From: a virus
Taxonomy: Duplodnaviria; Heunggongvirae; Uroviricota; Caudoviricetes
IMG/VR virus record: IMGVR_UViG_2541047431_000017
Length of the DNA stretch: 17,376 bases
Direction: 5' to 3' (one strand)
The translations under genes were made by a program, and so were the position numbers. Below are positions 6,990 to 7,545 of this stretch, one piece after another. The notes under the pieces are model-generated. The model was not told where the DNA came from and searched no databases. It saw nothing but the letters and a program-made list of their open reading frames with translations. Within the stretch, counting starts at the first letter, position 1, and each line of letters opens with the position of its first letter.

Positions 6990-7292
6990 CCGGATGCCGC
7001 GCCAGCGGCATGTAGGGGCAGCTCACAAAACGGAAAAAATTGTACGCTAAGCCTCGCCAGGTGAACTGAATTCATTCCGATATGGGAATTCCCATATCGG
7101 GCGAAAACGGTTTGCTGTAACGGCAGAGTTAAGTAGGATTGCTGCGGGTGCTTGAGGCTATCTGCCTCGGGCATGAACACCAACGGCAGATAGATAAAAG
7201 CCCCACCCGACTATAAATCGAAGTGAGGCCCCTATATGCTCGTCACATATAGATTGCCTCTTACGGACCGAAAGGTCAAGGAGAAGCAGGCT

Positions 7293-7448
7293 ATGAAGCA
7301 GCAAAAGGCGATGTTAATCGCCCTGATCGTCATCTGTTTAATCGTCATAGTGACGGCACTGGTAACGAGGAAAGACCTCTGCGAGGTACGAATCCGAACC
7401 GGCCAGACGGAGGTCGCTGTCTTCACAGCTTACGAACCTGAGGAGTAA
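7293..7448 (+). CDS. hok: Hok-family type I toxin (HokD/RelF-like)
   Basis: 51-aa product MKQQKAMLIALIVICLIVIVTALVTRKDLCEVRIRTGQTEVAVFTAYEPEE, which I recognise as Hok/Gef family. An in-frame ATG at 7236 gives a 70-codon mok-like ORF (ORF track 7236..7448). Strong intrinsic terminator downstream. Confidence 0.85.
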   Translation: MKQQKAMLIALIVICLIVIVTALVTRKDLCEVRIRTGQTEVAVFTAYEPEE

Positions 7449-7517
7449 GAGACCAGGCGGGGGAGAAATCCCTCGCCACCTCTGATGTGTCAGGCATCCT
7501 CAACGCACCCGCACTTA

Positions 7518-7545
7518 ACCCGCTTCGGCGGGTTTTTGTTTTTAT
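7518..7545 (+). terminator. intrinsic terminator (hok mRNA 3' end)
   Basis: ACCCGC-ttcg-GCGGGT hairpin followed by TTTTTGTTTTTATTTT. Confidence 0.6.

What the first reader, a model, noticed from the sequence alone, without database searches (positions are those of the whole stretch)
7180..7545. hok/mok-type type I toxin module inside the prophage
The 51-aa product is an unmistakable Hok-family membrane toxin, with a 70-codon in-frame upstream ORF of mok size and a strong intrinsic terminator at the mRNA 3' end. An antisense Sok-like RNA would be expected on the minus strand around 7180-7290 but I cannot delineate it from sequence alone. It sits directly downstream of the moron.
Basis: partly seen in the sequence, partly recalled or inferred. 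Interest (0 to 1): 0.45.

Follow-up and report, generated by a model that had tools for sequence, protein, structure and literature searches.

The report
Intact hokD-type hok/mok/sok toxin module

Summary
ORF 7293-7448 encodes a 51-aa Hok/Gef toxin (Pfam PF01848, E 7e-22), 50/51 identical to K-12 HokD and 46/51 to the tested toxin HokW. An in-frame 70-codon mok ORF starts at 7236, and an intrinsic terminator lies at 7517-7534.

The predicted hok mRNA runs from G7146 to about 7540, and its promoter lies at 7111-7139.

All family-defining RNA elements are present:
- the Rfam RF01794 leader (103.9 bits);
- 5'-3' tac/fbi pairing (7146-7157 with 7498-7510), which covaries across 24 homologues;
- ucb/dcb pairing and sequestration of the hok start region.

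I delineated the missing Sok by homology to the annotated K-12 sokC and to the mutation-tested sokW promoter. It lies on the minus strand: -35 TTGACC (7279-7274), -10 CAATCT (7256-7251), +1 G7244, and about 55 nt ending near 7190. It covers the mok Shine-Dalgarno sequence and AUG.

Two small points go beyond the textbook. The Sok/target cassette (7205-7256) is only about 60% identical to relatives whose flanks are 94-99% identical. K-12 hokD is a copy truncated upstream of 7279.

The same 501 bases occur at 100% identity in O157:H7 chromosomes, annotated hokD. Function is inferred; expression and toxicity are untested. Verdict: already known, low interest.

The parts
7111..7139 (+). Predicted hok/mok promoter: -35 TTTGCT 7111-7116 (or TTGCTG 7112-7117), -10 TAGGAT 7134-7139, six nt before the transcript start
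   Evidence: Read. In divergent homologues a -10-like hexamer lies exactly 6 nt upstream of the tac G-run. Examples are TATAAT in L012 and L014, TAGAAT in L017 and L038, TATATT in Photorhabdus, TATTAT in Pantoea and TATGAT in the R1 type. The R1-type hexamer is flagged by the scan. Inferred, not shown.
7146..7541 (+). Predicted full-length hok mRNA (about 395 nt)
   Evidence: The 5' end is set by position 1 of the Rfam RF01794 model and the tac motif GGGUGCUUGAGG. The 3' end is set by the terminator. MFE -163.8 kcal/mol, z -7.6 against shuffles.
7146..7157 (+). tac element (5' end of the mRNA) that pairs with fbi
   Evidence: The MFE fold pairs 7146-7157 with 7498-7510. The best duplex is -21.5 kcal/mol, at the homologous place in the 24 homologues aligned. 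Pair 4 covaries, U-A in 15 and C-G in 8.
7146..7295 (+). hok mRNA leader matched by Rfam RF01794 ('sok antitoxin, CssrC')
   Evidence: 103.9 bits, E 4.7e-23, full model 1-157. The model hits the hok-sense strand on the R1-type and hokW-type reference loci as well.
7225..7228 (+). mok Shine-Dalgarno sequence GAGG
   Evidence: Read. GAGG is invariant in alignment A1. It lies inside the stretch complementary to the predicted Sok.
7232..7252 (+). Sok-target hairpin: stems CUAUAUG/CAUAUAG, loop CUCGUCA (7239-7245); the mok AUG lies in the 5' arm
   Evidence: Present in the MFE folds of both the full-length and the truncated mRNA. The loop is complementary to the 5' end of the predicted Sok.
7236..7448 (+). 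mok ORF, 70 codons, in frame with hok
   Evidence: An ATG exactly 19 in-frame codons upstream of hok occurs in 17 of 24 homologues, including the R1 type, the hokW type and the hokC type L013. K-12 mokC and hokC are annotated with the same stop.
7190..7244 (-). Predicted Sok antisense RNA, about 55 nt: a 9-nt free 5' tail GACGAGCAU, a long hairpin (7235->7196) and a U-rich 3' tail
   Evidence: Its ends align to the annotated K-12 sokC, NC_000913.3 16952..17010. Fold -21.4 kcal/mol, z -4.66. The hairpin is far more stable on this strand, -18.7 against -8.3 kcal/mol. Expression is not shown.
7251..7279 (-). Predicted Sok promoter: -35 TTGACC (7279->7274), 17-nt spacer, -10 CAATCT (7256->7251)
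   Evidence: It aligns column for column with the promoters of K-12 sokC (TTGACC-17-CACTCT), sokW (TTGCCT-17-TAACCT) and the R1 type (TTGCGC-17-TATCCT). The sokW -10 is the element mutated in the 'pro-less' construct of PMC8621323, as primer YO-421 shows.
7257..7264 (+). Upstream complementary box (CCTCTTAC) that pairs with 7445-7451
   Evidence: RNAalifold consensus helix, columns 158-164 with 348-356, 98.2% of cells paired in 24 sequences but nearly invariant.
7278..7283 (+). hok Shine-Dalgarno sequence AAGGAG
   Evidence: Read. CAAGG is invariant in alignment A1.
7293..7448 (+). hok toxin gene, 51 aa
   Evidence: Pfam PF01848, E 7.1e-22. 50/51 identical to K-12 HokD and 46/51 to HokW. Annotated hokD in RefSeq.
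7291..7301 (+). hok start region, sequestered by pairing with 7417-7428
   Evidence: Consensus helix 7 of alignment A1: 10 pairs, 97.9% paired, 3 pairs with compensatory changes (U-A 11 / C-G 9; A-U 9 / G-C 9; A-U 20 / G-C 3).
7431..7434 (+). Tyr47 codon TAC followed by G: the UACG motif of TadA A-to-I editing (Tyr to Cys)
   Evidence: Sequence checked. TACGAA is invariant in all 24 homologues. The motif and its role are described in bioRxiv 10.1101/2025.08.07.668861. Editing at this locus is not shown.
7445..7451 (+). Downstream complementary box (GTAAGAG), overlapping the hok stop codon
7498..7510 (+). fbi (fold-back inhibition) element CCTCAA-C-GCACCC
7517..7541 (+). Intrinsic terminator: hairpin 7517-7534 plus T-run
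   Evidence: The same hairpin follows K-12 hokD and the L003-L006 loci.

Best explanation
This is a complete hok/mok/sok type I toxin-antitoxin locus of the hokD subgroup, carried in the early-right region of a lambdoid prophage. What the sequence shows:
- a Hok-family toxin gene and an in-frame mok ORF with its own Shine-Dalgarno sequence;
- a roughly 395-nt mRNA whose extreme 5' end (tac) pairs with a box just upstream of the terminator (fbi);
- conserved pairings that bury the hok start region;
- a convergent minus-strand gene for a roughly 55-nt RNA with a free 5' tail, a long hairpin and a U-tail, which is exactly complementary to the mok Shine-Dalgarno sequence and AUG.

The rest is inferred from the plasmid R1 paradigm, recalled from my own knowledge of work by the Gerdes laboratory. 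A weak promoter makes a stable full-length mRNA. The tac-fbi clamp keeps it inert to translation and to Sok. Slow 3' trimming removes the terminator and fbi, and the 5' end refolds locally. The mok start region and the target hairpin then become accessible. While the element is present and transcribed, abundant but unstable Sok pairs with the target loop through its 5' tail and blocks mok translation. hok translation is coupled to mok, so it is blocked too. The duplex is cut by RNase III. If Sok supply stops, mok and then hok are translated, and Hok depolarises the inner membrane. Possible triggers are loss of the prophage, a transcription shut-off, or prophage induction, as reported for the paralogue hokW-sokW. 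The most likely role in this context is the one shown for hokW-sokW: helping host lysis and phage release on induction. Prophage retention is a second possible role. Neither is tested here.
For: - Toxin: Pfam E 7e-22; 50/51 aa identical to K-12 HokD and 46/51 to HokW, which is toxic when expressed (PMC8621323).
- Leader: RF01794 at 103.9 bits.
- tac/fbi: paired in the MFE fold, z -7.6; a complementary box was found at the homologous place in the 24 homologues aligned, with matched changes GGGUGC/GCACCC against GGGCGC/GCGCCC and GAGG/CCUC against GAGA/UCUC.
- Consensus structure of 24 mRNAs: 95.5% of cells paired against 38-45% when partners are slid; 20 pairs have compensatory changes; 0 of 500 shuffles reach the observed values.
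- Sok: promoter, start and end align to the annotated sokC and to the mutation-tested sokW promoter.
- Sok fold: z -4.7.
- Sok hairpin: 10 kcal/mol more stable on the antisense strand than on the sense strand, as in sokC, sokW and R1 sok. G-U pairs become C-A mismatches on the other strand.
- mok: 19 in-frame codons, as in 17 of 24 homologues.
- Conservation: the locus is 100% identical in O157:H7 chromosomes, and 560 records are at least 99% identical.
Against: - There are no expression or toxicity data for this copy.
- The Sok -10 (CAATCT) and the hok promoter are poor matches to the consensus, and the consensus scan finds neither. The scan also misses the known Sok promoters.
- Chromosomal hok loci of E. 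coli have been reported not to mediate post-segregational killing and were suggested to be inactive (bioRxiv 10.1101/2025.08.07.668861).
- The consensus structure was derived from the same alignment on which the pairs were counted, which inflates the paired fraction.
- The ucb/dcb helix is nearly invariant, so it gives no covariation evidence.
- Hok here has Tyr, not Cys, at position 47, so full toxicity may depend on TadA editing.
Confidence: 0.85

Rival explanations
1. The locus looks intact but is functionally silent. It would be a relic like the chromosomal hok loci of laboratory E. coli, conserved only because the prophage is young and clonal. Either Hok is never made or Sok is not needed.
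For: - Chromosomal hokA, hokB and hokC could not mediate post-segregational killing and were proposed to be inactive (bioRxiv 10.1101/2025.08.07.668861).
- Both promoters are weak matches to the consensus.
- The near-identical copies are mostly closely related STEC genomes, so their conservation is weak evidence of selection.
- Tyr47 instead of Cys may lower toxicity unless the mRNA is edited.
Against: - No IS insertion, frameshift or deletion affects any element. By contrast, K-12 hokC has IS186 next to it and no clear fbi, and K-12 hokD lacks everything upstream of 7279.
- The strand-asymmetric Sok hairpin and the compensatory changes in tac/fbi and in the hok start-region helix show selection on the RNA structures in this lineage of loci.
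- The paralogue hokW-sokW is functional (PMC8621323).
Confidence: 0.12
2. Only the toxin gene matters. It would be expressed by read-through from the upstream cargo or early operon, as K-12 hokD is expressed behind relBE. The apparent Sok region would then be just the hok leader, with no separate antisense gene.
For: - In K-12, hokD lies directly behind relB-relE, without mok, the Sok target or the Sok promoter (for L006, 38).
- The Rfam 'sok' hit lies on the sense strand, so by itself it does not prove an antisense gene.
Against: - A terminator-like hairpin follows paa at 6964-6977, and the -10-like hexamer sits at the family-conserved distance from the tac start.
- The minus strand carries a promoter, start and terminator that align to the annotated sokC and to the tested sokW promoter.
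- The hairpin is much more stable on the antisense strand, which a pure leader element would not require.
Confidence: 0.03

Closest known systems
hokD (relF) of the Qin cryptic prophage, E. coli K-12
   Same: The toxin is 50/51 identical. DNA is 98.4% identical from window 7279 to 7600. The same terminator follows the gene, and the downstream neighbours are the same: rem, a hypothetical gene and ydfU (DUF968). RefSeq names the window's gene hokD.
   Different: The K-12 copy is truncated. relB-relE replace everything upstream of 7279, so the hok promoter, tac, mok start, Sok target and Sok gene are all absent (for L006, 38). The window holds the intact form, with paa/adfO upstream instead of relBE.
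hokW-sokW of Stx2 prophage Sp5, E. coli O157:H7 Sakai (PMC8621323)
   Same: Both are prophage-borne with the same architecture. The toxin is 46/51 identical. The 5' leader is 98% identical, the hok coding sequence 94%, and the 3' UTR up to fbi 94%. The Sok promoter is homologous. hokW-sokW is the only close relative with direct evidence of toxin, antitoxin and a role in phage release.
   Different: The Sok body and mok start-region cassette is only 60% identical, with 23 gap columns: a short hairpin here and a long one in sokW. The Sok 5' tail differs (GACGAGCAU against GUUCAGCAU), and predicted cross-pairing is weak, -6.7 and -5.8 against -21.8 kcal/mol for the cognate pair. The hokW-type locus lacks the terminator hairpin after fbi. 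The prophage and the position within it are different.
hokC/mokC/sokC (gef) of E. coli K-12
   Same: Both have the in-frame 19-codon mok extension, and the mok peptides are very similar: MLVTYRLPLTDRKVKEKQA against MLNTCRVPLTDRKVKEKRA. Both have the short-hairpin class of Sok and the same promoter type, TTGACC-17-CA(A/C)TCT. sokC is an annotated ncRNA, and I used it to set the ends of Sok.
   Different: The toxin is 40/50 identical. hokC is a core-chromosome locus next to nhaA, with IS186 inserted beside it in K-12 and no clear fbi.
hok/mok/sok (parB) of plasmid R1
   Same: The two share the element order, tac/fbi logic, in-frame mok and Sok architecture. The Rfam model hits both on the sense strand.
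   Different: The toxin is distantly related in sequence. Only 4 of 51 positions match in an ungapped comparison offset by an indel. PMC8621323 gives 44% identity between HokW and R1 Hok. The tac/fbi register and sequence differ (GGCGC/GCGCC), and the 5' hairpin is longer. R1 is a plasmid, where the shown role is post-segregational killing.

Membership tests
hok/mok/sok type I toxin-antitoxin loci | Hok/Gef-family toxin ORF of about 50 aa (Pfam PF01848) | tested here: met
   E 7.1e-22, 77.2 bits against a cutoff of 22, full profile. The NCBIfam Hok models are matched only below their cutoffs, 44.3 bits against 73.
hok/mok/sok type I toxin-antitoxin loci | mok reading frame that starts upstream with its own Shine-Dalgarno sequence and overlaps hok | tested here: met
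   ORF 7236-7448, with GAGG 7 nt upstream. The same 19-codon in-frame arrangement occurs in 17 of 24 homologues, including the R1, hokW and hokC types.
hok/mok/sok type I toxin-antitoxin loci | hok mRNA leader structure (Rfam RF01794) | tested here: met
   103.9 bits against a gathering score of 59, full-length match. The strand was calibrated on the R1-type and hokW-type loci.
hok/mok/sok type I toxin-antitoxin loci | Antisense Sok gene (promoter, free 5' tail, hairpin, U-tail) complementary to the mok translation start region | tested here: met
   Met at the sequence level: alignment to the annotated sokC and the tested sokW promoter, fold and strand asymmetry. Transcription itself cannot be tested with these tools.
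hok/mok/sok type I toxin-antitoxin loci | Long-range 5'-3' pairing (tac with fbi) in the full-length mRNA | tested here: met
   Present in the MFE fold. Found at the homologous place in the 24 homologues aligned, with compensatory changes.
hok/mok/sok type I toxin-antitoxin loci | Sequestration of the hok start region (ucb/dcb pairing and pairing of the start region with coding sequence) | tested here: met
   Consensus helices 5 and 7: 98.2% and 97.9% of cells paired, with 3 covarying pairs in helix 7.
hok/mok/sok type I toxin-antitoxin loci | Hok is toxic and Sok neutralises it; activation needs 3' processing and decay of Sok | not testable with these tools
   Supported only by analogy: HokW (46/51 identical) is toxic and is neutralised by sokW (PMC8621323).
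hokD (relF) orthologue group | Near-identical toxin and conserved downstream synteny (rem, ydfU) in a Qin-like lambdoid prophage | tested here: met
   50/51 aa. 98.4% DNA identity from 7279 onward. The neighbours match.
hokW-sokW (Sp5) locus | The same antitoxin RNA and target, i.e. the same specificity | tested here: not met
   The cassette 7205-7256 is 60% identical with 23 gap columns, while the flanks are 94-98% identical. Predicted tail-target pairing is -6.7 and -5.8 kcal/mol for the cross pairs, against -21.8 and -22.6 for the cognate pairs.

The most novel reading that the evidence does not exclude
The 52-nt Sok-body/mok-start cassette (7205-7256) may be an exchangeable specificity module. 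It differs sharply from the cassette of loci that are otherwise 94-99% identical. It occurs once per genome (at most twice) in genomes that hold up to 10 hok-like places, and its Sok tail is predicted to pair only with its own target. If so, O157-type genomes would run several mutually orthogonal hok/sok circuits, one per prophage. Each could then report loss or induction of its own prophage. A second gate could come from TadA editing of Tyr47 to Cys.
Probability: 0.3. Interest if true: 0.35.

Novelty: already known. Interest (0 to 1): 0.15.

Why it matters
It matters little as a discovery. hok/sok is the founding type I toxin-antitoxin system. hok genes are known to be enriched in prophages (bioRxiv 10.1101/2025.08.07.668861). 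A close paralogue in another O157 prophage has been characterised (PMC8621323). This exact locus is annotated hokD or gef in public records.

The work has three useful by-products:
- mok and Sok are not annotated at this locus in RefSeq; the feature column under the Sok region reads 'none'. Coordinates for them are now proposed.
- The Rfam family named 'sok' matches the hok-sense leader, so hits to it should not be read as the strand or extent of the antitoxin RNA.
- The locus is the intact counterpart of the truncated K-12 hokD, which makes it the natural template for testing how hokD-type toxins are controlled.

Tried and rejected
1. Consensus sigma-70 scan for a minus-strand Sok promoter. 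It found nothing in 6900-7800. I rejected this as evidence of absence, because the same scan finds no Sok promoter in the hokW-type locus, where that promoter was mutated and shown to matter, or in the R1-type locus.

2. Reading the Rfam 'sok' hit as the Sok RNA. I rejected this after calibration. On both reference loci the model matches the hok-sense strand, from the mRNA 5' end to the hok AUG.

3. My recollection that mok is out of frame with hok in R1, which would have made the in-frame ORF here unusual. It was wrong. In the R1-type locus, in hokC/mokC and in the hokW type the ATG lies 57 nt upstream in frame. Seven of 24 homologues lack that in-frame ATG.

4. A LexA box near the promoters that could explain RecA-dependent control. 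Reading one search shows no CTG-N10-CAG motif.

5. A tRNA-like hairpin around the UACG editing site. The local fold is weak, -3.3 kcal/mol, so I make no claim about it.

6. The second half of the tac/fbi helix could not be scored in one column register. Photorhabdus, Pantoea and R1 sequences lack the bulged C, so I scored it per sequence by duplex search instead.

7. The large protein searches, structure prediction and metagenome scans were not used. Family assignment was already unambiguous.

Full report
**Observation.**
- ORF 7293..7448 (+) encodes 51 aa. It matches Pfam PF01848 (Hok/Gef) over the whole profile at E 7.1e-22.
- ORF 7236..7448 lies in the same frame and adds 19 codons. GAGG sits 7 nt upstream of its ATG.
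- A terminator-like hairpin at 7517-7534 is followed by a T-run.
- Independently, the Rfam model RF01794 hits 7146-7295 at 103.9 bits, against a gathering score of 59, E 4.7e-23.

The module begins at about 7111 with the promoter, and the transcript starts at 7146.

**Where it sits.** The 501 bases around the locus are 100% identical in E. coli O157:H7 chromosomes, where the gene is annotated hokD. They are 99.8% identical in 'PPompW' prophage records, where it is annotated 'gef, phage maintenance protein'.
- Upstream gene: paa/adfO, an AcfC-family adhesin (6199-6957; Pfam SBP_bac_11).
- Downstream: a rem-like ORF, a hypothetical gene, ydfU (DUF968), rusA and a Q-like gene.
- Some 4721 of 5426 complete E. 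coli genomes hold a related stretch, with a median of 2 places and up to 10 per genome.

**What the Rfam hit means.** The hit lies on the same strand as hok. It starts with GGGUGCUUGAGG and ends at the hok AUG. I ran the same search on an R1-type plasmid locus (Hok 100% identical to the R1 protein sequence I supplied from memory) and on a hokW-type Stx2-phage locus. In both, the model again hits the hok-sense strand, from the mRNA 5' end to the hok AUG. So the family named 'sok' models the hok leader. That leader contains the complement of Sok, and the hit does not give the strand or ends of the antitoxin RNA.

**Delineating Sok.** I aligned the minus strand with three references: the ncRNA sokC annotated in K-12 (NC_000913.3 16952..17010), the hokW-type locus and the R1-type locus. 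This gives:
- -35 TTGACC (7279->7274), a 17-nt spacer and -10 CAATCT (7256->7251);
- +1 at G7244, aligned to the annotated 5' end of sokC;
- an end near 7190, making about 55 nt.

The homologous promoters are TTGACC-17-CACTCT (sokC), TTGCCT-17-TAACCT (sokW) and TTGCGC-17-TATCCT (R1 type). The sokW -10 is the element changed in the 'promoter-less' construct that unmasked HokW toxicity (PMC8621323; primer YO-421 compared with the wild-type sequence).

The predicted RNA folds into a 9-nt free 5' tail, a long hairpin and a U-rich tail (-21.4 kcal/mol, z -4.66). R1 Sok and sokW have the same plan. It covers the mok Shine-Dalgarno sequence (7225-7228) and AUG (7236-7238).

One signature is specific to the antisense strand. 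The hairpin 7196-7235 is worth -18.7 kcal/mol on the minus strand but only -8.3 on the plus strand, because G-U pairs become C-A mismatches. The same asymmetry holds for sokC (-21.2 / -8.3), sokW (-29.6 / -19.1) and R1 sok (-16.4 / -10.5).

The strict consensus scan finds no minus-strand promoter. It misses the known Sok promoters of the two reference loci as well, so this result carries no weight.

**The hok mRNA.** Folding 7146-7541 pairs the first 12 nt (tac) with CCUCAA-C-GCACCC at 7498-7510 (fbi), just before the terminator (MFE -163.8 kcal/mol, z -7.6). Without the last 44 nt, the 5' end refolds locally onto 7198-7204.

I collected 34 related loci from Escherichia, Shigella, Kluyvera, Pseudocitrobacter, Photorhabdus, Pantoea and Erwinia. 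Wherever both mRNA ends were present and recognisable, the best partner of the 5' end in the 3' UTR lies at the homologous place. It changes in step with the 5' end: GGGUGC/GCACCC against GGGCGC/GCGCCC, and GAGG/CCUC against GAGA/UCUC.

On an alignment of 24 distinct mRNAs (A1), RNAalifold recovers these helices:
- tac/fbi;
- CCUCUUAC (7257-7264) with GUAAGAG (7445-7451), which I take to be the ucb/dcb boxes of the R1 literature (from memory);
- the hok start region (7291-7301) with 7417-7428.

Pair counting gives 95.5% of cells paired, against 38-45% when partners are slid by 1-3 columns. Twenty pairs have compensatory changes, and 0 of 500 shuffles reach the observed values. A caveat applies: the structure was derived from the same alignment, and the ucb/dcb helix is nearly invariant.

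A -10-like hexamer lies exactly 6 nt upstream of the tac G-run in the window (TAGGAT, 7134-7139) and in divergent homologues. This supports a transcript start at about 7146.

**Relatives.** The toxin is 50/51 identical to K-12 HokD, 46/51 to HokW and 40/50 to HokC.
- K-12 hokD matches only from window 7279 onward, at 98.4%. Upstream of that point K-12 has relB-relE (L006). K-12 hokD is therefore a truncated copy that lacks the promoter, tac, mok start, Sok target and Sok. The window holds the intact form.
- Against the hokW-type locus, the leader (98%), promoter/Shine-Dalgarno block (94%), coding sequence (94%) and 3' UTR (94%) are close. The cassette 7205-7256 (Sok body and tail, mok start region) is only 60% identical, with 23 gap columns. 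The same pattern holds against L004, whose coding sequence is 99% identical.
- This cassette variant is found in 618 of 5426 genomes, nearly always once per genome, and nothing is annotated over it.
- The first 13 nt of the predicted Sok pair well only with their own target: -21.8 kcal/mol, against -4.9 to -11.4 for six other loci. This suggests, but does not show, that co-resident hok/sok loci are orthogonal.

**Mechanism.** The parts list is shown by the analyses above; the dynamics are inferred from the R1 paradigm (own knowledge) and from hokW-sokW.
1. A stable full-length mRNA is kept inert by the tac-fbi clamp.
2. 3' trimming frees the 5' end and exposes the mok start region and the target hairpin (7232-7252, loop CUCGUCA).
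3. Short-lived Sok binds the loop through its 5' tail and blocks mok translation. hok translation is coupled to mok, so it is blocked too.
4. When Sok is no longer replenished, Hok is made and kills the cell by membrane damage.

For hokW-sokW, mitomycin C lowers sokW RNA, raises HokW in a RecA-dependent way, and the locus doubles phage release (PMC8621323). A similar role in lysis and release, or in prophage retention, is the most likely role here.

**Rivals.** A silent relic is possible (0.12). Chromosomal hok loci have been reported not to mediate post-segregational killing, and both promoters are weak. However, no element is disrupted, and the RNA structures show selection. A toxin-only gene expressed by read-through, as in relBE-hokD, is unlikely (0.03), given the aligned antisense gene and its strand-specific hairpin.

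**Novelty.** Already known. The family, its enrichment in prophages, a characterised close paralogue and the annotation of this very gene all exist. The only new points are the proposed mok and Sok coordinates, the cassette mosaicism and the Rfam strand caveat.

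Noticed in passing
window 7205-7256: The stretch that encodes the Sok body and tail and the mok start region is about 60% identical, with 23 gap columns, to loci whose flanking leader, coding sequence and 3' UTR are 94-99% identical. It looks like a swapped or fast-evolving specificity cassette. The variant occurs in 618 of 5426 E. coli genomes, nearly always once per genome.
   Followed up: partly
window 7146-7295; L037 432-603; L038 1543-1717: Rfam RF01794, named 'sok antitoxin', matches the hok-sense strand from the mRNA 5' end to the hok AUG. This also holds on the R1-type and hokW-type reference loci. Hits to this family mark the hok leader, not the strand or extent of the antitoxin RNA.
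   Followed up: yes
window 7431-7434: The Tyr47 codon TAC is followed by G(AA), giving the UACG motif reported as a TadA A-to-I editing site that recodes Tyr to Cys in hok mRNAs (bioRxiv 10.1101/2025.08.07.668861). TACGAA is invariant in all 24 aligned homologues. The local hairpin is weak.
   Followed up: partly
window 7279 (breakpoint); L040 917-1670: K-12 hokD is 98.4% identical to the window from 7279 onward, but relB-relE replace everything upstream. The site just upstream of the hok Shine-Dalgarno sequence carries different cargo in different prophages: relBE in Qin, paa/adfO plus the full hok leader here.
   Followed up: partly
window 7077-7100: A perfect 24-bp palindrome, CCGATATGGGAA/TTCCCATATCGG, contains an EcoRI site and ends 10 nt upstream of the predicted hok -35. 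No T-run follows it on either strand. It is absent from the hokW-type locus. Its function is unknown; it could be a protein-binding site or a transcriptional insulator.
   Followed up: no
window 6199-6957: A 252-aa secreted solute-binding-like protein (Pfam SBP_bac_11, E 5.5e-34) is annotated in relatives as Paa/AdfO, an AcfC-family adhesin. It is followed by a terminator-like hairpin at 6964-6977.
   Followed up: partly
window 3735-4948: Two overlapping ORFs (3735-4061 and 4058-4948) flank an ALIL frameshift pseudoknot (RF01497, 121.5 bits, at 4016-4132). This is an IS3-family insertion sequence. The corresponding stretch of the related O157 chromosome L002 shows no transposase annotation.
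   Followed up: no
window 11921-12532: A cluster of RNA genes lies downstream of the Q-like region: two tRNAs (11921-11993, 12077-12150), the sRNA STnc100 (12263-12471, 175 bits) and, on the minus strand, the anti-sRNA AgvB (12473-12532, 56.6 bits, just above its gathering score).
   Followed up: no
window 7666-7926: The 86-aa ORF downstream of hok has no Pfam or NCBIfam match. It occupies the position of rem in K-12 Qin.
   Followed up: no
window 7008-7019 and 7228-7239: A 12-nt inverted repeat (92% complementary) links a site between paa and hok to the mok start region. It is probably a chance match. It lies upstream of the predicted transcript start, so it would not be part of the hok mRNA.
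   Followed up: no
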